Source: a virus. From it: a DNA stretch of 5,801 nucleotides. Every line of letters begins with the position of its first letter. Position 1 is the first letter of the stretch. The stretch is from positions 1 through 5,801 of IMG/VR virus record IMGVR_UViG_3300045988_010436. One strand, written 5' to 3'. Shown piece by piece: positions 1 to 5,801 of the stretch. The position numbers and the translations under genes are program-made. The notes under the pieces were generated by a model, which had not been told where the DNA came from, searched no databases, and saw only the letters and a list, made by a program, of their open reading frames with translations.

Positions 1-119
1 ACGCGGGTCAACTCATTCCATTCTATGTCGATGAGGTGTTACCGGGTGACACATTCAGCATCGACCAAGCCGCAATTATCCGCATGACTACGCCTATCTT
101 CCCGGTTATGGACAACTGC
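1..119. repeat. Terminal direct repeat, left copy: circular-genome assembly overlap identical to 5683-5801.
   Basis: Base-by-base reading shows 1-119 equals 5683-5801. The repeat lies inside the VP1 reading frame and joins it seamlessly. Unit length is 5682 nt. Confidence 0.97.
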
Positions 120-1608: not shown

Positions 1609-1633
1609 CCTCAGCTGAGAGTGTCAGCTGAGG
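1609..1633 (+). other. Perfect 10-bp stem / 5-nt loop hairpin in the VP1-VP2 intergenic region.
   Basis: CCTCAGCTGA (1609-1618), loop GAGTG, TCAGCTGAGG (1624-1633). The arms are exact reverse complements and each carries CAGCTG. No T-run follows. Confidence 0.8.
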
Positions 1634-1656
1634 CCTCAACTGACGAAAGGGGGGAA

Positions 1657-1686
1657 GCCCGGGGCAAAACCCCGGGCTATTTTATT
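1657..1686 (+). terminator. Rho-independent terminator-like hairpin after VP1, probably leaky/attenuating.
   Basis: GCCCGGGG (1657-1664), loop CAAAA, CCCCGGGC (1670-1677): a perfect 8-bp all-GC stem followed by TATTTTATT (1678-1686). It ends directly at the VP2 ATG. Confidence 0.6.
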
Positions 1687-2535
1687 ATGGCATTAGCAGC
1701 AATCGGCAGCGCACTACTCGGAATCGGCAAACAACTACTCCCAACAATCGCCGGAGGACTCATAAACAAATTCCTAGGCGGGAATCTGATGGAAAGCAAT
1801 GGGGGGAGCAGTCAGCACAACGAAAGTTCGAGCCAAGGAGGCGGCTACAGCAGCGCCGCCAGCGGCGTAAACCGAGAGCAAAATCTACAAGACTGGAACA
1901 GTATGCTAGGGGCAATTCAAGGCAATATGCAAAGCCAGCAGAAGTTTAACCGTCGGAGCATGTTCGAGCAAATGGGCTATAACACCATGGCAGCAATCAC
2001 TCAGGGTGTATATAACCAGATAAGCAACAACGCAGCGATGAGCTACAACAGCGCAGAAGCAGCCAAAAACAGAGCTTGGCAAGAGCAAATGAGCAATACA
2101 GCTTATCAGCGAGCTGTGGAAGACATGCGAAAAGCTGGCATCAACCCTATCTTAGCATACCAACAGGGCGGAGCGAGCACGCCGGGAGGCGCACAGGGCA
2201 CTATCAGCGGGGCAAGTATGGGTCTCGCAAGCAGCAGTGCGGCGAACGCAAGCGCTCTCGGAGTAAGCCAGAACCACAACAACACATGGAGCAAAAGCGA
2301 AAGTAACTGGTACAACGCAGCACAAGCGGTCGGAGACGCTACAAGCTGGTCCCACACAAGCGCAGACAAAGCGTTTAACGCATTCAAGGACGTCTTCAAC
2401 GACCTCAGCAACCTAAACAGTGGCGTCGGCGGAGGTGTAGGGAGAAAACCAAAAAAAGATGAGCTCGAATACAAACCGGGAAGAGACTTCATTGGAAGCA
2501 AAAACATCGAATTTTGGAAAGGAAAACTTAAATAA
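1687..2535 (+). CDS. VP2: Minor capsid / DNA pilot protein VP2 (phiX174 H analogue), 282 aa.
   Basis: ATG 1687 is in frame with track ORF 1621-2535. The N-terminus is Gly/Ala/Leu-rich (MALAAIGSALLGIGKQLLPTIAGGLINKFLGG). The low-complexity Ser/Gly/Gln/Asn body contains the conserved gokushovirus VP2 block NTAYQRAVEDMRKAGINPILAY. Its position directly after VP1 fits the family. GTG 1621 lies inside the upstream hairpin and has no RBS. Confidence 0.88.
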   Translation: MALAAIGSALLGIGKQLLPTIAGGLINKFLGGNLMESNGGSSQHNESSSQGGGYSSAASGVNREQNLQDWNSMLGAIQGNMQSQQKFNRRSMFEQMGYNTMAAITQGVYNQISNNAAMSYNSAEAAKNRAWQEQMSNTAYQRAVEDMRKAGINPILAYQQGGASTPGGAQGTISGASMGLASSSAANASALGVSQNHNNTWSKSESNWYNAAQAVGDATSWSHTSADKAFNAFKDVFNDLSNLNSGVGGGVGRKPKKDELEYKPGRDFIGSKNIEFWKGKLK

Positions 2536-3555
2536 ATGGGATGCAACAAACCGTTAATCCGGTTTTATGTACCTCATGATAGAGAGGCGAGCGGGCGAGT
2601 ATACTCACTCGCTTCTTTCAACAAAGTTCATAAGACCGAAATGAAATATGAAGACCTGATGTATCGGAAAGATGTAATGATGATTCCTTGTGGACAATGC
2701 ACAGGATGCAAACTACGCAAACGCAAAGACTGGGCCACGCGGATGGAGCTAGAAGCATACAGTCACGACAAGGAAAGCATCTGGTTCATCACACTGACCT
2801 ATGATGACGACCATATACCAACACAGGACACGGAAACAGGAGAAATCTTCAAAGGGGGCGTGAACGTCTGGAAAGACACCTCAGAGCGTCCCAGAACGGT
2901 GCAAACTTTAAGCGTAGAGGATGTCCAGTTATTCATGAAAAGGCTTAGAAAAGCCGTCAGCGGGCCTCTCAGATACTTCCTAGCCGGAGAGTATGGAGAC
3001 AACACCTCAAGACCACACTATCACATGATACTATACGGGTGGTATCCGGACGACTTAGAGCCGATTCACAAACTGTCAAGATTCGGACACTACACGAGCG
3101 ATAAACTAATCAAAGTCTGGGGGCAAGGGACAGTTGACATAGCTCAAGCAACACCAGAGACATATAACTACGTAGCCGGATATGTGACCAAGAAACTATA
3201 CGGAAACGACAAGGACAGGTATAGGAAAATGGGACTCATACCGCCATTCTGCGTAATGAGCCGAAAACCAGGACTCGGAGACGAGTGGTTTCAAAAGAAT
3301 CAAGAAAGGCTATGGCAACTTGGATACATCCAGCTGACAAACGGCAAGAGAGCAGCCATTCCAGAATATTATTGGCGAAAGCTGGAAGCTGAAAATCCTG
3401 AAAAGGCGTGGAGAATAAAGCAGTATCGACAGGAAAAAGCCATTGCATCCCTAATCGAAAGAAACATGGAAACTGACAAACGGTATGCCGAACAACTAGC
3501 CGATAAAGAAGCAATCATGAAGAAGAAGATGTCCAAAGCAAAGGGCGTTTTTTAG
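2536..3555 (+). CDS. VP4: Replication initiation protein VP4 (HUH rolling-circle endonuclease, phiX174 gpA family), 339 aa.
   Basis: The ATG abuts the VP2 stop (TAA-ATG). Cys cluster PCGQCTGCKLRKRKDW; motif 1 FITLTYDD (from nt 2785); HUH motif PHYHMILYG (H-Y-H at 3016-3024); double-tyrosine catalytic motif YVAGYVTKK (compare phiX174 YVAKYVNK). Confidence 0.96.
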   Translation: MGCNKPLIRFYVPHDREASGRVYSLASFNKVHKTEMKYEDLMYRKDVMMIPCGQCTGCKLRKRKDWATRMELEAYSHDKESIWFITLTYDDDHIPTQDTETGEIFKGGVNVWKDTSERPRTVQTLSVEDVQLFMKRLRKAVSGPLRYFLAGEYGDNTSRPHYHMILYGWYPDDLEPIHKLSRFGHYTSDKLIKVWGQGTVDIAQATPETYNYVAGYVTKKLYGNDKDRYRKMGLIPPFCVMSRKPGLGDEWFQKNQERLWQLGYIQLTNGKRAAIPEYYWRKLEAENPEKAWRIKQYRQEKAIASLIERNMETDKRYAEQLADKEAIMKKKMSKAKGVF

Positions 3556-3625: not shown

Positions 3626-3666
3626 GCGCGCGCGCACGCGCGCATAATTGCGCACGCGCACGCGCG
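3626..3666. repeat. Alternating purine-pyrimidine, almost pure GC imperfect palindrome (cruciform / ssDNA hairpin; Z-DNA-prone).
   Basis: Arms 3627-3644 and 3649-3666 pair at 15 of 18 positions (14 G:C plus 1 A:T; three C/A mismatches) around loop TAAT (3645-3648). Strict Pu-Py alternation runs over 3626-3646 and 3649-3666. The element is flanked by T-rich and AT-rich DNA. Confidence 0.9.
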
Positions 3667-3714
3667 ATTTTTATTATATTATTATTAACTTGTTGTAGTC
3701 GTAGTAGTAGGGAG

Positions 3715-3888
3715 TGTTGAAATGTTGAATACTATGAATTTTTATCCTTGGAACGATATTTTCTGGTTAATTTTGATGTTGATACTTTTGTGGATAACTT
3801 GTTGAATTGTTGAAAGTGTAGCAATATGCACAAAAACCTTTGTGCAACATTTTGTGGAAAACCTGTTGAAAGTGTTGAAAGTGTTGAA
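3715..3888 (+). repeat. Iteron array: seven exact TGTTGAA copies, including three tandem 9-mers.
   Basis: TGTTGAA at 3715, 3723, 3800, 3808, 3864, 3873 and 3882. Tandem TGTTGAAAG TGTTGAAAG TGTTGAAAA spans 3864-3890. Variants are TGTTGAT (3777) and TGTTGTA (3691). A 21-nt direct repeat TTTTGTGGAWAACYTGTTGAA lies at 3786-3806 and 3850-3870 (19/21 identical). Confidence 0.9.
3789..3861 (-). promoter_or_regulatory. Cluster of DnaA-box-like 9-mers.
   Basis: 3789-3797 TGTGGATAA is the reverse complement of the perfect consensus TTATCCACA. 3853-3861 TGTGGAAAA corresponds to TTTTCCACA, which fits TTWTNCACA. There are 8/9 matches at 3824-3832 (ATATGCACA, + strand) and 3841-3849 (TGTGCAACA, - strand). 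These two form the arms of an 8-bp hairpin: TGCACAAA 3827-3834 and TTTGTGCA 3839-3846, loop AACC. Confidence 0.55.
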
Positions 3889-3974: not shown

Positions 3975-4023
3975 AAAAAAAGTTTCAAAAAACTATTGAC
4001 AAATCTCAAAAGTATGGTATAAT
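3975..4023 (+). promoter_or_regulatory. Near-consensus sigma70-type promoter with extended -10 and an UP-element-like A-tract region.
   Basis: -35 TTGACA (3996-4001), 16-nt spacer, TGg extended motif (4015-4017), -10 TATAAT (4018-4023). A7 (3975-3981) and A6 (3987-3992) tracts lie upstream. Predicted start near 4030, about 20 nt before the ORF at 4050. Confidence 0.8.
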
Positions 4024-4049: not shown

Positions 4050-4247
4050 ATGAGAAAACCACGATTGAGCGAAAACACCATAGGGAAACTCGAAATTTAC
4101 GGACACGCAGAATCCGGAAAAAACTACTACGAACTGAAAGACTACATCGACGCAAAAGGAAAATGTTACACGGTGCTTGAATGGACAAACCTTAAGAACG
4201 GAGATGCAAAACAATTCGATTGGGAAAAATGCACAAAAGAGGCTTGA
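4050..4247 (+). CDS. Orphan 65-aa soluble protein in a stand-alone promoter-ORF-terminator cassette; function unknown.
   Basis: SD GGCGGAGA (4037-4044) lies 5 nt before ATG 4050. The consensus promoter is immediately upstream and a terminator overlaps the stop. The protein is Lys/Glu/Asp- and aromatic-rich, with 2 Cys and no hydrophobic segment. I recognise no family motif. Confidence 0.7.
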   Translation: MRKPRLSENTIGKLEIYGHAESGKNYYELKDYIDAKGKCYTVLEWTNLKNGDAKQFDWEKCTKEA

Positions 4248-4265
4248 CGAGTCTCTTTTTTTTTT
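4235..4265 (+). terminator. Rho-independent terminator of the 65-aa ORF cassette.
   Basis: AAAAGAGGC (4235-4243) pairs with GTCTCTTTT (4251-4259), including one G:U. The loop TTGACGA contains the stop codon. A 10-T run (4256-4265) follows. Confidence 0.65.
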
Positions 4266-4372
4266 ATATACTAAAGGCAATCAAGCAGCACAGAAGTACA
4301 TTTAACAAATTCCATTTTTACAAAATAACATTATGAAAGAGGTGAACTGCTCTGACTCTCCAAGAAATCAAG

Positions 4373-4456
4373 ATGCTGTTTGAAAACATCCAAAAAATCC
4401 TTGCCATGCTGGACAAAATCTACCACGCAGTAACAGGGGACAAACCGGAGGCTTGA
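4373..4456 (+). CDS. Possible 27-aa leader ORF (MLFENIQKILAMLDKIYHAVTGDKPEA); weak call.
   Basis: ATG 4373 to TGA 4454-4456, which ends 1 nt before the ATG of the next ORF. No convincing SD lies upstream, and the ORF is very short. Confidence 0.2.
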   Translation: MLFENIQKILAMLDKIYHAVTGDKPEA

Positions 4457-4457
4457 A

Positions 4458-4685
4458 ATGGAAAACAAACCATGGAATGTAAGAGACCAGACCGACGAGA
4501 ACCTTATGCAAGAGTTGACGAAAACCTACAAGGCAATAGACGCCGCGTACAAAATGGTACGACAGGCAACAAACATCGAAGACGCAAAGTATTATATTGA
4601 CATTGCGTTTAGAAAAAAAGCATCTGCCAGTAACATTGAGGTGGAAATCCTCAGAAGGGAAATCAACCATGGCAAAGAGGAGTAA
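4458..4685 (+). CDS. Orphan 75-aa charged, probably helical protein; function unknown.
   Basis: Strong SD GGAGG (4447-4451) lies 6 nt before ATG 4458. Its 3' end overlaps the J-like gene start by 17 nt, as expected for compact phage organisation. No motif recognised. Confidence 0.6.
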   Translation: MENKPWNVRDQTDENLMQELTKTYKAIDAAYKMVRQATNIEDAKYYIDIAFRKKASASNIEVEILRREINHGKEE

Positions 4686-4788
4686 AGTCCGCAAATCCAA
4701 AGACGCAAAAATCTACAACAAGACCGCACGAAAGACAAAGGCAATCAACCTTGGAAGCGGCGCAATGAGAGGGGGAATCCGACTGTGA
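4669..4788 (+). CDS. Small basic DNA-binding/packaging peptide (phiX174 J / Chlamydia-phage ORF8-like), 39 aa.
   Basis: MAKRSKVRKSKDAKIYNKTARKTKAINLGSGAMRGGIRL has an Arg/Lys-rich N-terminal half and the C-terminal MRGGIRL/F motif that I recall from gokushovirus ORF8-type peptides. ATG 4669 is in frame with track ORF 4597-4788. The upstream ATG 4597 adds a non-basic extension with no RBS. Confidence 0.75.
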   Translation: MAKRSKVRKSKDAKIYNKTARKTKAINLGSGAMRGGIRL

Positions 4789-4883
4789 GTGCTGTATTCG
4801 CAAGCATGACTATGGCATTTCTCGCAGCGGGGTTTTACCTCGTCATTAACACAATCGACATCATCAAAGAATGGTTCAAATAA
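4785..4883 (+). CDS. Unannotated 32-aa hydrophobic (single transmembrane helix) peptide; below the ORF-track size cut-off.
   Basis: GTG 4785 overlaps the J-like stop (GTGA). SD-like AGGGGG (4770-4775) lies 9 nt upstream. The translation is (M)SAVFASMTMAFLAAGFYLVINTIDIIKEWFK. TAA 4881-4883 runs into the next gene's SD (TAAGGAG). The ORF exactly fills the otherwise unexplained 107-nt gap. An alternative in-frame ATG is at 4806. Confidence 0.5.
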   Translation: MSAVFASMTMAFLAAGFYLVINTIDIIKEWFK

Positions 4884-4895
4884 GGAGACAATCAT

Positions 4896-5132
4896 ATGAA
4901 CGTATACGGAATTTTCGATAAATGCGTGATGGGCTATATCACCATCTTTACCGAACGTGACGACAAGGTGGCCGAACGCAATTTCAAAATCGCACTGACC
5001 GATGACCGGAATATCATGAGCAAGACTCCGAACGACTATCGGTTGGTGCGCCTGGCAAAGTTTGACGAGAAAACGGGCCTGTTTGAGAACGAAAAGGAGA
5101 ACATCTTCGATGGCGTATCGCTCAGTAAGTAA
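4896..5132 (+). CDS. VP5: VP5-like non-structural protein of gokushoviruses, 78 aa.
   Basis: SD AAGGAG (4882-4887) lies 8 nt before the ATG. The pattern MNVYGIFDK...ERNFKIAL...TPNDYRLVRLAKFDEKTGLF matches my recollection of the conserved Y.I.D / A.R.F / P.DY.L...G.FD..TG layout of VP5-type proteins. Its position just upstream of VP3 also fits. Confidence 0.7.
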   Translation: MNVYGIFDKCVMGYITIFTERDDKVAERNFKIALTDDRNIMSKTPNDYRLVRLAKFDEKTGLFENEKENIFDGVSLSK

Positions 5133-5589
5133 TTTCAGAGAGACTACAATAGCAAAACCCACCGAAGCCGGAGAGACCGTGAGGCGCACATACCTCTGGG
5201 AACTCAACGAGAAAGGCGAAAAGGTGCTAACGCTTGACCAGATCATCGACCAGCAGGCGGAAATCGACAGCTTCCTTGAAGAAACCAAGCTGGAAAACAT
5301 CATCCGGCGAGCATCCATCGACCCTGACATTGCAGCTAGGCTGATGCCGGATATGGGCGGTGGACTCCAGGACGCAACCGACATGCCGGAGAATCTGATG
5401 GAGCTCCAAAACATCATGCTCCGAGCAGAACAAATCTGGGATGAAATCCCGAAAGAAATCAAGCTCAAGTTTGACAATGACGTTGACAAGTTTGTCGCAA
5501 GCTTCGGCACTGTTGACTGGGCGAAGAATCTGGGCATTTATCAGGAAAAGCAGCCTGAAGAGCCTAAAAAAGAGGAGACCGCTGAATGA
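5110..5589 (+). CDS. VP3: Internal scaffolding protein VP3, 159 aa.
   Basis: SD AAGGAGA (5094-5100) lies 9 nt before ATG 5110, in frame with track ORF 5062-5589. The protein is acidic and helical, with a C-terminal block IPKEIKLKFDNDVDKFVASF typical of gokushovirus scaffold proteins. The stop overlaps the VP1 start (ATGA at 5586-5589). Confidence 0.82.
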   Translation: MAYRSVSNFRETTIAKPTEAGETVRRTYLWELNEKGEKVLTLDQIIDQQAEIDSFLEETKLENIIRRASIDPDIAARLMPDMGGGLQDATDMPENLMELQNIMLRAEQIWDEIPKEIKLKFDNDVDKFVASFGTVDWAKNLGIYQEKQPEEPKKEETAE

Positions 5590-5801
5590 ACAGAAACAAA
5601 GATGCAGGATTCAACCAGGTACCACGGCTGGACATTACGCGAAGTCGCTTCAAACGGCGGCAGGACGTCAAGCTAACGATGAACGCGGGTCAACTCATTC
5701 CATTCTATGTCGATGAGGTGTTACCGGGTGACACATTCAGCATCGACCAAGCCGCAATTATCCGCATGACTACGCCTATCTTCCCGGTTATGGACAACTG
5801 C
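5586..5801 (+). CDS. VP1: Major capsid protein VP1, 5' portion (start codon to window end); 5683-5801 duplicates 1-119.
   Basis: SD GAGGAG (5570-5575) lies upstream of ATG 5586. The translation MNRNKDAGFNQVPRLDITRSRFKRRQDVKLTMNAGQLIPFYVDEVLPGDTF... is the canonical Microviridae capsid N-terminus. It continues in frame into nt 3 of the window through the overlap. Confidence 0.95.
   Translation, partial: MNRNKDAGFNQVPRLDITRSRFKRRQDVKLTMNAGQLIPFYVDEVLPGDTFSIDQAAIIRMTTPIFPVMDNC
5683..5801. repeat. Terminal direct repeat, right copy (assembly overlap of the circular genome).
   Basis: Identical to 1-119. Confidence 0.97.

What the first reader, a model, noticed from the sequence alone, without database searches (positions are those of the whole stretch)
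4785..4883. Hidden 32-aa transmembrane peptide between the J-like and VP5 genes: candidate lysis or exclusion factor
The 107-nt gap between two tightly packed genes is filled exactly by one ORF. It has a GTG start overlapping the previous stop (GTGA), an SD-like G-run 9 nt upstream, and a stop embedded in the next gene's SD. The peptide has one ~22-residue hydrophobic helix (SAVFASMTMAFLAAGFYLVINTI) and a short amphipathic charged tail (DIIKEWFK). Established knowledge: gokushoviruses lack a recognisable homologue of the phiX174 lysis protein E, and their lysis mechanism is unresolved. Single-gene lysis proteins of small phages are short membrane proteins, often missed by ORF callers. Inference: this could be a lysis, membrane-depolarising or superinfection-exclusion peptide.
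Basis: partly seen in the sequence, partly recalled or inferred. Interest (0 to 1): 0.66.

Follow-up and report, generated by a model that had tools for sequence, protein, structure and literature searches.

The report
Optional membrane-peptide gene in gut gokushoviruses
A real, conserved but optional 32-codon gene for a single membrane-spanning peptide lies between two core genes of a human-gut gokushovirus; it may help lysis, but about 40% of close relatives lack it, so it cannot be the subfamily's universal lysis gene.

Summary
ORF 4785..4883 (+) fills the 107-nt gap between the J-like gene and VP5. Its GTG overlaps the J stop (GTGA), and an SD-like G-run lies 9 nt upstream. It is a real gene. 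41 of 68 relatives carry a homologue in the same slot, in four sequence types of 32, 33, 38 and 39 aa. Only this frame stays open in all 30 unique copies (32- and 38-aa types). dN/dS is 0.34-0.36, against 0.8-1.9 in the other forward frames and 0.03-0.07 for the neighbouring genes. AlphaFold predicts one helix (pLDDT 93.6). An I-D-I-I-K-x-W tail is nearly invariant. In relatives without the ORF, the same start site serves VP5, so the site is a working initiation site.

The gene is optional. 27 relatives lack it cleanly, 16 of them complete circular genomes, and most of those have no other small hydrophobic ORF. It therefore cannot be the essential gokushovirus lysis gene. It has no relatives outside microvirus-sized contigs and matches no E, holin or other known family.

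Best reading: a translationally coupled accessory membrane peptide carried on a short insertable cassette. A lysis-helper role is possible (about 35%) and superinfection exclusion is the main rival. The function is untested and the host is unknown.

The parts
4669..4788 (+). J-like/VP8-type basic 39-aa protein gene (MAKRSKVRKSK...GAMRGGIRL). It is the upstream partner for translational coupling.
   Evidence: ORF list. Matches PHROG 10695 at E=6e-9. dN/dS 0.025. 'J-like' is inferred from size, basic composition and position.
4770..4775 (+). SD-like AGGGGG, 9 nt upstream of the GTG. It also encodes the conserved R-G-G of the J-like protein.
   Evidence: Comparable SD motifs precede VP1, orf75, J-like, VP5 and VP3. 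In ORF-less relatives the same element and overlap serve VP5.
4785..4883 (+). The 32-codon accessory gene, with its GTG start inside GTGA and a TAA stop.
   Evidence: the frame is open in all relatives that carry it and dN/dS is 0.34-0.36.
4788..4856 (+). Transmembrane helix, residues 2-24, rich in Ala/Gly/Ser/Thr, with a conserved [G/S/A]xxxAxxx[A/S]-x-F pattern (S7, A11, A15, F17).
   Evidence: Hydropathy, helix model, column conservation.
4854..4880 (+). Juxtamembrane tail I-D-I-I-K-E-W-F-K. I26, K28 and W30 are invariant and I24 and D25 nearly so.
   Evidence: Alignments. The same motif occurs in the 33-aa type (TIDIVKNWRH) and the 39-aa type (VDDIKKWRNEK).
4881..4887 (+). TAAGGAG: the stop codon of the peptide gene overlapping the SD of VP5. 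The cassette brings its own ribosome-binding site for VP5.
4896..5132 (+). VP5 (Pfam Phage_ORF5), the downstream core gene whose ancestral coupled start site the cassette has taken over.
   Evidence: Pfam E=8.9e-18. Junction alignments. dN/dS 0.05-0.07.

Best explanation
SHOWN. 4785..4883 is a genuine protein-coding accessory gene. It encodes a 32-residue peptide predicted to form one continuous hydrophobic helix followed by a conserved I-D-I-I-K-x-W tail. It sits on a roughly 110-nt cassette inserted at the junction of the J-like gene and VP5. The cassette took over the start site that VP5 uses in ORF-less relatives (SD-like G-run plus a start codon overlapping the J stop). It also supplies a new SD and ATG for VP5. 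Short near-repeats of the VP5 5' end flank the cassette, which would make clean loss easy. The gene is present in about 60% of the clade and absent from the rest, so it is optional.

INFERRED. Ribosomes finishing the abundant J-like protein re-initiate on the peptide gene, so the peptide is made alongside the packaging and structural proteins. The uncharged N-terminus and the mostly positive C-tail suggest that it inserts into the host cytoplasmic membrane N-out/C-in, with the Asp-Lys-Trp tail at the cytoplasmic interface.

BEST GUESS at function (about 35%). It perturbs the membrane or a membrane-bound cell-wall enzyme and so helps or times host lysis, as an optional lysis accessory comparable to the patchy M15 peptidases of other gokushoviruses. 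It is not the essential or universal gokushovirus lysis gene.
For: Gene status: the frame is open only in + frame 0 in 30/30 unique copies of the 32- and 38-aa types. dN/dS is 0.34-0.36, against 0.8-1.9 in the other + frames. Four divergent sequence types (32, 33, 38 and 39 aa, 31-44% identity between the 32- and 38-aa types) keep hydrophobicity, the small-residue pattern and the tail.

Translation: all main genes have SD motifs. The same G-run and overlap start VP5 in 27 ORF-less relatives. Start codons at the overlap vary among GTG, ATG and TTG, and a TAATG overlap also occurs.

Membrane helix: KD 2.03; AlphaFold2 helix 2-31, pLDDT 93.6; N-terminal charge 0 and C-tail mostly 0 to +4.

Cassette and optional status: 41 with and 27 without. 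Junction alignments show the flanking near-repeat. Presence and absence are interleaved on both the VP1 tree and the local tree. L015 is a frameshifted allele and L042 has an internal deletion. A homologue occurs in one member (KT264793.1) of a second clade whose VP5 is only 32% identical; the junctions are the same and 20 of 21 nt at the 3' end are identical.

Lysis-accessory idea: patchy lysis-associated accessory genes are already described in microviruses (PMC3394797; PMC9239249). KT264793.1 carries both an M15 peptidase and the peptide. Single-gene lysis proteins with one TMD exist at this size, for example the 37-residue LysM (PMC12506998 abstract).
Against: Nothing has been tested experimentally and the host is unknown: there is no prophage and no homologue in 185,579 species genomes. 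The peptide is not significantly similar to any holin, phiX174 E or other family (Pfam none; PHROG holin 920 only at E=0.12). The window genome has no endolysin. Ten of ten M15-bearing relatives of KT264793.1 lack the peptide, so there is no holin-endolysin linkage. The small residues do not show a clean 100-degree helical periodicity, so an oligomerising face is not demonstrated. Being optional fits a superinfection-exclusion or other moron-type role equally well. In the only large screen reported, about 10% of TMD-bearing candidate ORFs from small phages were lytic.
Confidence: 0.45

Rival explanations
1. It is a single-gene lysis protein (a 'protein antibiotic') and the sole lysis effector in the genomes that carry it. 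It would bind and block a membrane step of peptidoglycan precursor synthesis or export, as phiX174 E blocks MraY and LysM blocks MurJ.
For: It has the right size and a single TMD. Its invariant D/K/W juxtamembrane motif looks like a specific binding surface. No lysis gene is known for any gokushovirus. It is expressed together with the late genes.
Against: 27 of 68 close relatives, otherwise syntenic, lack it. Nine complete ORF-less genomes show no substitute small TM ORF. Any lysis system those genomes use should also be present in the carriers. The peptide has no proline-containing TMD like E, no basic N-terminus and no conserved LS motif like MS2 L. Pfam finds nothing.
Confidence: 0.15
2. 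It is a superinfection-exclusion or entry-blocking factor. An inner-membrane peptide would stop the pilot-protein (VP2) conduit of incoming related microviruses from delivering DNA.
For: Its patchy, moron-like distribution and weaker constraint than the core genes (dN/dS 0.35 against 0.03-0.07) are typical of competition genes. Many related genomes come from one dataset, and the trees are mosaic, which implies frequent co-infection and recombination. Superinfection immunity of unknown mechanism is reported for gokushovirus EC6098 (PMC7062461).
Against: There is no direct evidence. The same mosaicism shows that co-infection still happens. No homology to known exclusion proteins was found.
Confidence: 0.2
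3. The cassette matters only as a translational device. It is an upstream ORF or spacer that replaces the weak GTG-coupled VP5 start with a strong SD and ATG, and the peptide itself has no function.
For: The insertion does change VP5's initiation context. In the 38- and 39-aa types the W-R-K codons (TGGAGGAA) double as the VP5 SD.
Against: Amino-acid-level purifying selection (dN/dS 0.34-0.36) is seen only in this frame. Hydrophobicity and the IDIIK motif are kept across four types, including the 32-aa type, where the SD lies outside the ORF.
Confidence: 0.07
4. It is a chance ORF in a non-coding spacer, or the constraint comes from an RNA structure or from the 274-codon antisense ORF 4713..5537.
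For: The window's own RNA folds somewhat better than shuffles (z = -1.84). A long antisense ORF does exist in the window.
Against: There is no conserved structure or covariation in 14 relatives (consensus -1.8 kcal/mol) and no Rfam match. The codon-aligned antisense frame has stops in 10 of 20 32-aa-type sequences. Conservation of the sense frame is as described above.
Confidence: 0.02

Closest known systems
phiX174 lysis protein E (Bullavirinae; MraY inhibitor)
   Same: A short membrane protein of a microvirus with one N-terminal TMD, predicted N-out/C-in, made from the late polycistronic message.
   Different: E is 91 aa, is overprinted inside gene D and depends on a proline in its TMD and on host SlyD (from my own knowledge). 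This peptide is 32-39 aa, has its own slot, has no proline in any allele, has no Pfam match and is optional.
Very small single-gene lysis proteins of ssRNA phages (e.g. LysM, 37 aa, MurJ inhibitor)
   Same: Similar size, a single TMD, patchy and fast-evolving, easily missed by gene callers (abstract).
   Different: No sequence relationship was found. Each ssRNA phage needs its lysis gene, whereas 40% of this clade lacks the peptide. No basic N-terminal domain or LS motif.
Holins and pinholins of tailed phages
   Same: A small membrane protein with a short charged C-terminus, made late. One carrier (KT264793.1) also has an M15 peptidase.
   Different: Much shorter than typical holins. There is no endolysin in the window genome and no linkage with M15 in that clade. 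The only hit is non-significant (PHROG 920, E=0.12).
Accessory M15_3 peptidase genes of gokushoviruses and alpaviruses (Roux et al. 2012, PMC3394797)
   Same: A patchily distributed, optional gene in gut microviruses, proposed to be lysis-associated.
   Different: The peptidases are roughly 130-aa enzymes with bacterial and phage homologues. This peptide has no cellular homologue.
Ff filamentous-phage pVII and pIX (33- and 32-aa membrane peptides after the ssDNA-binding protein gene), recalled from memory and not tested
   Same: 32-33-aa hydrophobic peptides without signal sequences, translated by coupling to an upstream DNA-binding protein gene through overlapping stop and start codons.
   Different: Those are virion cap proteins of membrane-extruded phages. 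Microviruses assemble in the cytoplasm. No homology was tested or claimed.

Membership tests
phiX174 E-type lysis protein | Sequence match to the curated E family | tested here: not met
   Pfam scan returned no family even at E<=0.1 to 1.
phiX174 E-type lysis protein | Gene overprinted inside the external scaffolding gene | tested here: not met
   It occupies its own 107-nt slot between the J-like gene and VP5.
phiX174 E-type lysis protein | Functionally essential proline within the TMD (feature recalled from memory) | tested here: not met
   No proline in any of 40 aligned family members.
phiX174 E-type lysis protein | Inhibits MraY; expression lyses growing cells | not testable with these tools
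   Needs expression experiments.
MS2 L-like lysis proteins | Basic N-terminal domain followed by a hydrophobic stretch and a conserved Leu-Ser dipeptide (feature recalled from memory) | tested here: not met
   N-terminal charge is 0 in all alleles and there is no conserved LS.
Holin / pinholin | At least one TMD plus a short charged C-terminal tail | tested here: met
   KD 2.03 and helix 2-31. Tail net charge is 0 to +1 in the 32-aa type and mostly 0 to +4 in the 38-aa type.
Holin / pinholin | Encoded with an endolysin in the same genome or cassette | tested here: not met
   No peptidoglycan hydrolase domain in the window's ORFs. Only KT264793.1 combines it with an M15 peptidase, and 10 of 10 M15-bearing relatives lack the peptide.
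Holin / pinholin | Significant match to a known holin family | tested here: not met
   Best hit is PHROG 920 at E=0.12, 13 bits. Pfam finds none.
Gokushovirus J/VP5-junction membrane peptide (the family defined here) | A 32-39-aa ORF whose start overlaps the J-like stop, one TMD, and an I/V-D/N-I/D-I/V-K-x-W tail immediately upstream of VP5 | tested here: met
   The window copy scores within the family. There are 39 clusters in the 5.8-billion-protein set, all on contigs of 12 kb or less and mostly microvirus-sized at about 5-6 kb. An exhaustive profile search of 1.84 billion representatives gave 7 hits.
Superinfection-exclusion membrane proteins | Blocks DNA entry of related phages (a functional definition with no sequence signature) | not testable with these tools
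   Needs infection assays.

The most novel reading that the evidence does not exclude
This peptide family is the first lysis effector identified for Gokushovirinae. It would be either a 32-39-residue single-gene lysis protein or a minimal pinholin. It would be carried on a short cassette that moves between clades, and natural cassette-plus and cassette-minus genomes would differ in lysis timing.
Probability: 0.2. Interest if true: 0.75.

Novelty: new member of a known kind. Interest (0 to 1): 0.5.

Why it matters
No lysis gene was found for gokushoviruses in the literature searched, although they are among the commonest phages of the human gut. This work turns a guess into a defined test object. 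It is a conserved, selected family of about 110-nt genes with four natural sequence types, invariant residues to mutate (D25, K28, W30), and natural genomes with and without it. If the peptide is lytic it would be one of the smallest known lysis proteins and might point to a new envelope target. If it is an exclusion factor it would help explain how many related microviruses coexist. The result also shows that gene callers and GenBank records routinely miss this gene, and that it is not the universal answer to gokushovirus lysis.

Tried and rejected
1. Origin by tandem duplication of the VP5 5' end. Only the first 2-3 codons are shared. The body of the ORF is no more similar to VP5 DNA than codon shuffles (148-446 of 500 shuffles scored as well).

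2. A conserved RNA hairpin hiding the SD and GTG. The window folds at z = -1.84, but 14 relatives show no consensus structure or covariation. Rfam finds nothing.

3. The antisense 274-codon ORF 4713..5537 as the source of constraint. Its frame is interrupted in half of the 32-aa-type relatives.

4. A compensating small TM gene in ORF-less genomes. Nine of 16 complete ORF-less genomes have none at KD >= 1.7. The recurrent 27-aa hydrophobic ORF (window 3722..3805) has in-frame stops in many relatives and lies in conserved non-coding DNA.

5. Holin-endolysin pairing with the M15 peptidase. No linkage was found.

6. A glycine-zipper face. The small residues are conserved but show no clear 100-degree periodicity.

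7. Host identification through prophages or cellular homologues. Both genome scans were empty.

8. The 25-aa ATG-start version. Met8 is not conserved.

9. Stop-codon readthrough into VP5. The two are in frame only in the 32-aa type and out of frame in the 38-aa type.

10. New genomic contexts for the family in IMG/VR. Only the already known contigs were recovered.

11. A survey of six distant GenBank gokushoviruses for analogous ORFs. AT-rich genomes give many spurious hydrophobic off-frame ORFs, so only KT264793.1 was informative.

Full report
WHAT THE WINDOW IS. The 5801 bases are a circular gokushovirus genome of 5682 nt with 119 nt repeated at the ends. All genes are on the + strand:
- VP1, which matches Pfam Phage_F and starts in the wrap-around at 5586
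- VP2, 1621..2535
- VP4, 2536..3555, the replication protein
- a non-coding stretch
- small ORFs at 4050..4247 and 4458..4685
- a 39-aa basic J-like gene, 4669..4788
- the candidate, 4785..4883
- VP5, 4896..5132, which matches Pfam Phage_ORF5
- VP3, 5110..5589, which matches Pfam Chlamy_scaf

The nearest GenBank records are human, monkey and pig faecal 'Gokushovirus WZ-2015a' and 'Microviridae sp.' genomes at 75-81% nucleotide identity.

CHECK OF THE OBSERVATION. Each sequence statement is correct.
- The GTG at 4785 overlaps the J-like stop as GTGA.
- AGGGGG lies 9 nt upstream of that GTG.
- The TAA stop overlaps the AAGGAG that precedes the VP5 ATG.
- The gap is 107 nt.
- The peptide MSAVFASMTMAFLAAGFYLVINTIDIIKEWFK has a maximum 19-residue Kyte-Doolittle hydropathy of 2.03.
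- AlphaFold2 models it as one helix over residues 2-31, with mean pLDDT 93.6.

IS IT A GENE?
- I collected 6 GenBank and 62 IMG/VR relatives through VP5. 41 of the 68 have a hydrophobic ORF in exactly this slot.
- There are two main sequence types, of 32 aa and 38 aa, which are only 31-44% identical to each other.
- A 33-aa type occurs in human-gut ENA contigs.
- A 39-aa type occurs in KT264793.1, whose VP5 is only 32% identical to the window's.
- The 39-aa copy is the best non-family hit of the family profile among 6330 ORFs (E=0.013). It shares 20 of 21 nt with the 38-aa type at its 3' end and has the same junctions. I treat it as a homologue.
- Among 30 unique nucleotide versions of the 32- and 38-aa types, only the + frame 0 is open in all. 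That frame also has the lowest dN/dS: 0.36 and 0.34, against 0.8-1.9 in the other + frames and 0.42-1.26 on the minus strand.
- Second codon positions vary least.
- Synonymous divergence is comparable to that of the neighbouring genes. Constraint is looser than on them: VP5 has dN/dS 0.05-0.07 and the J-like gene 0.025.
- All types keep a hydrophobic core rich in small residues, a [G/S/A]xxxAxxx[A/S]-x-F pattern, and a nearly invariant I/V-D/N-I-I/V-K-x-W tail.
- This is selection on the peptide itself, not mere maintenance of an open frame.

TRANSLATION.
- SD-like motifs precede VP1, orf75, the J-like gene, VP5 and VP3, so the host uses SD-dependent initiation.
- The strongest argument comes from the 27 relatives without the ORF. 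In them, VP5, a conserved core gene, starts at this very GTGA or ATGA overlap behind the same G-run. The site is therefore a working initiation site.
- The start codon at the overlap varies among GTG, ATG (L016) and TTG (L047), and the 33-aa type uses a TAATG overlap.
- There is no promoter-like site directly upstream. The gene lies inside the late polycistronic unit.

ANATOMY OF THE INSERTION.
- Junction alignments show a cassette of about 110 nt.
- Its first 2-3 codons copy the ancestral VP5 start. For example, L074 reads GTGAACACCA...ATGAGCACCAAC, while the ORF-less L092 reads GTGAGCACCAAC.
- Its 3' end supplies a new SD and ATG for VP5.
- In the 38- and 39-aa types the W-R-K codons (TGGAGGAA) double as that SD, and the stop overlaps the VP5 start as ATGA.
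- The flanking 7-10-nt near-repeat would allow clean loss by recombination between the repeats (inference).
- Presence and absence are interleaved on both the VP1 tree and the local VP5-VP3 tree. This implies repeated loss, gain or recombination.
- One allele is frameshifted (L015) and one has an internal deletion (L042).
- One ENA contig carries a tandem duplication formed at an ATCACAA microhomology.

DISPENSABILITY.
- Sixteen ORF-less genomes are complete circles. Nine of them have no other + strand ORF of 22-110 codons with KD >= 1.7.
- The one recurrent alternative is a 27-codon hydrophobic ORF at window 3722..3805. It has in-frame stops in many relatives, so it is not a gene.
- The peptide is therefore not required for the life cycle and cannot be the clade's essential lysis gene.
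- In the second clade, all ten IMG/VR relatives of KT264793.1 carry an M15_3 peptidase (Pfam E=1e-21 for the KT264793.1 copy), but none has the peptide. There is no holin-endolysin linkage.

RELATION TO KNOWN FAMILIES.
- Pfam gives nothing. PHROGs gives only a non-significant holin hit at E=0.12.
- A profile search of 5.8 billion proteins found 39 clusters. All are 32-45 aa and sit on contigs of 12 kb or less, mostly microvirus-sized. A few are labelled 'MAG TPA: hypothetical protein [Microviridae sp.]'.
- An exhaustive HMMER search of 1.84 billion representatives found 7 hits. Six are 32-38-aa peptides and one is a marginal, probably spurious match in a 2829-aa protein.
- Nothing was found in 185,579 species genomes, and no prophage of this clade either.
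- The papers searched report no gokushovirus lysis protein. They describe only patchy, horizontally acquired M15 peptidases as putative lysis accessories.
- In the only large screen of TMD-bearing candidate ORFs from small phages, about 10% were lytic.

INTERPRETATION.
- Shown: this is a real, selected, optional gene for a helical hydrophobic peptide, carried on a cassette that took over VP5's coupled start site.
- Inferred: it is expressed by translational coupling to the J-like gene. Its membrane topology is N-out/C-in, because the N-terminus is uncharged and the tail is mostly positive. The D-K-W tail would lie at the cytoplasmic interface.
- Best guess at function: an optional membrane-acting factor that assists or times lysis (about 35%).
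- Rivals are a sole single-gene lysis protein (about 15%, weakened by dispensability), superinfection exclusion (about 20%), a purely translational spacer (about 7%, weakened by peptide-level selection) and chance (about 2%).
- I rejected a VP5-duplication origin, a conserved RNA structure and constraint from the antisense ORF.

VERDICT. Its suggestion that this might supply the missing gokushovirus lysis function is only weakly supported and is contradicted in its strong form. It is a new, uncharacterised family of a familiar kind, the small accessory phage membrane protein. Interest is moderate: it is a clean, testable candidate with natural controls, but the host is unknown and there is no functional evidence.

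Noticed in passing
window 3651-3860 (includes ORF 3722..3805): A roughly 210-nt non-coding stretch downstream of VP4 is 87-97% identical in nearly all of the 58 (of 63) genomes with a hit, although their coding regions are only about 78% identical. The 27-codon hydrophobic ORF inside it (MLNTMNFYPWNDIFWLILMLILLWITC) has in-frame stops in many relatives, so the DNA is what is conserved, not a protein. It may be an origin, a packaging signal or a regulatory element.
   Followed up: partly
window 3996-4023 and 4235-4259, flanking ORF 4050..4247: There is a perfect sigma-70 consensus promoter (TTGACA, 16 nt, TG-TATAAT; 12 of 12). An 11-bp hairpin with a T-run follows at the end of the 65-codon ORF, and a second promoter-like site lies at 4244-4272. 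The 65-aa ORF has no Pfam or PHROG match and recurs in only a subset of relatives. Together with the SD use, this points to a host that is not Bacteroidetes.
   Followed up: no
window 4458..4685: A 75-codon ORF overlaps the start of the J-like gene by 17 nt. It is conserved in essentially all relatives, including the distant KT264793.1 (4727..4954), yet no feature is annotated there in the GenBank records viewed and it has no family match. It looks like an unrecognised core gene of this lineage.
   Followed up: partly
L147 (ENA ERZ19243459 contig) 320-600: This is a tandem duplication. The normal 38-aa peptide gene is followed by a 45-codon chimera, made of the first 18 VP5 codons fused to the last 27 peptide codons, and then by intact VP5. 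The breakpoint lies at an ATCACAA microhomology. Coverage is low (3.7x), so an assembly artefact is possible.
   Followed up: partly
L135 (KT264793.1) 4204..4593; L137-L146: A second gut gokushovirus clade carries a signal-less Peptidase_M15_3 gene between VP4 and the 75-aa ORF. All 11 members have it. Only KT264793.1 also has the membrane peptide. How a cytoplasmic peptidase would reach the cell wall in the other ten is unexplained.
   Followed up: partly
window 4713..5537, minus strand: A 274-codon antisense ORF spans the peptide gene, VP5 and most of VP3. Its frame is broken in half of the 32-aa-type relatives within the peptide region, so it is probably a by-product of the sense-strand codon pattern.
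   Followed up: partly
L134 (KT264823.1) 2581..2661: An unrelated 26-codon hydrophobic ORF (MNKWFSALCVAIGAAATYLGQFIFGK) sits alone in the 216-nt gap between VP2 and VP4 of a distant gokushovirus. The literature notes that region as a hotspot for lysis-associated accessory genes. It may be another hidden membrane peptide.
   Followed up: no
window 1-119 and 5683-5801: The two ends of the window are identical over 119 nt. This is the terminal redundancy of a circular assembly, so the genome unit is 5682 nt.
   Followed up: yes
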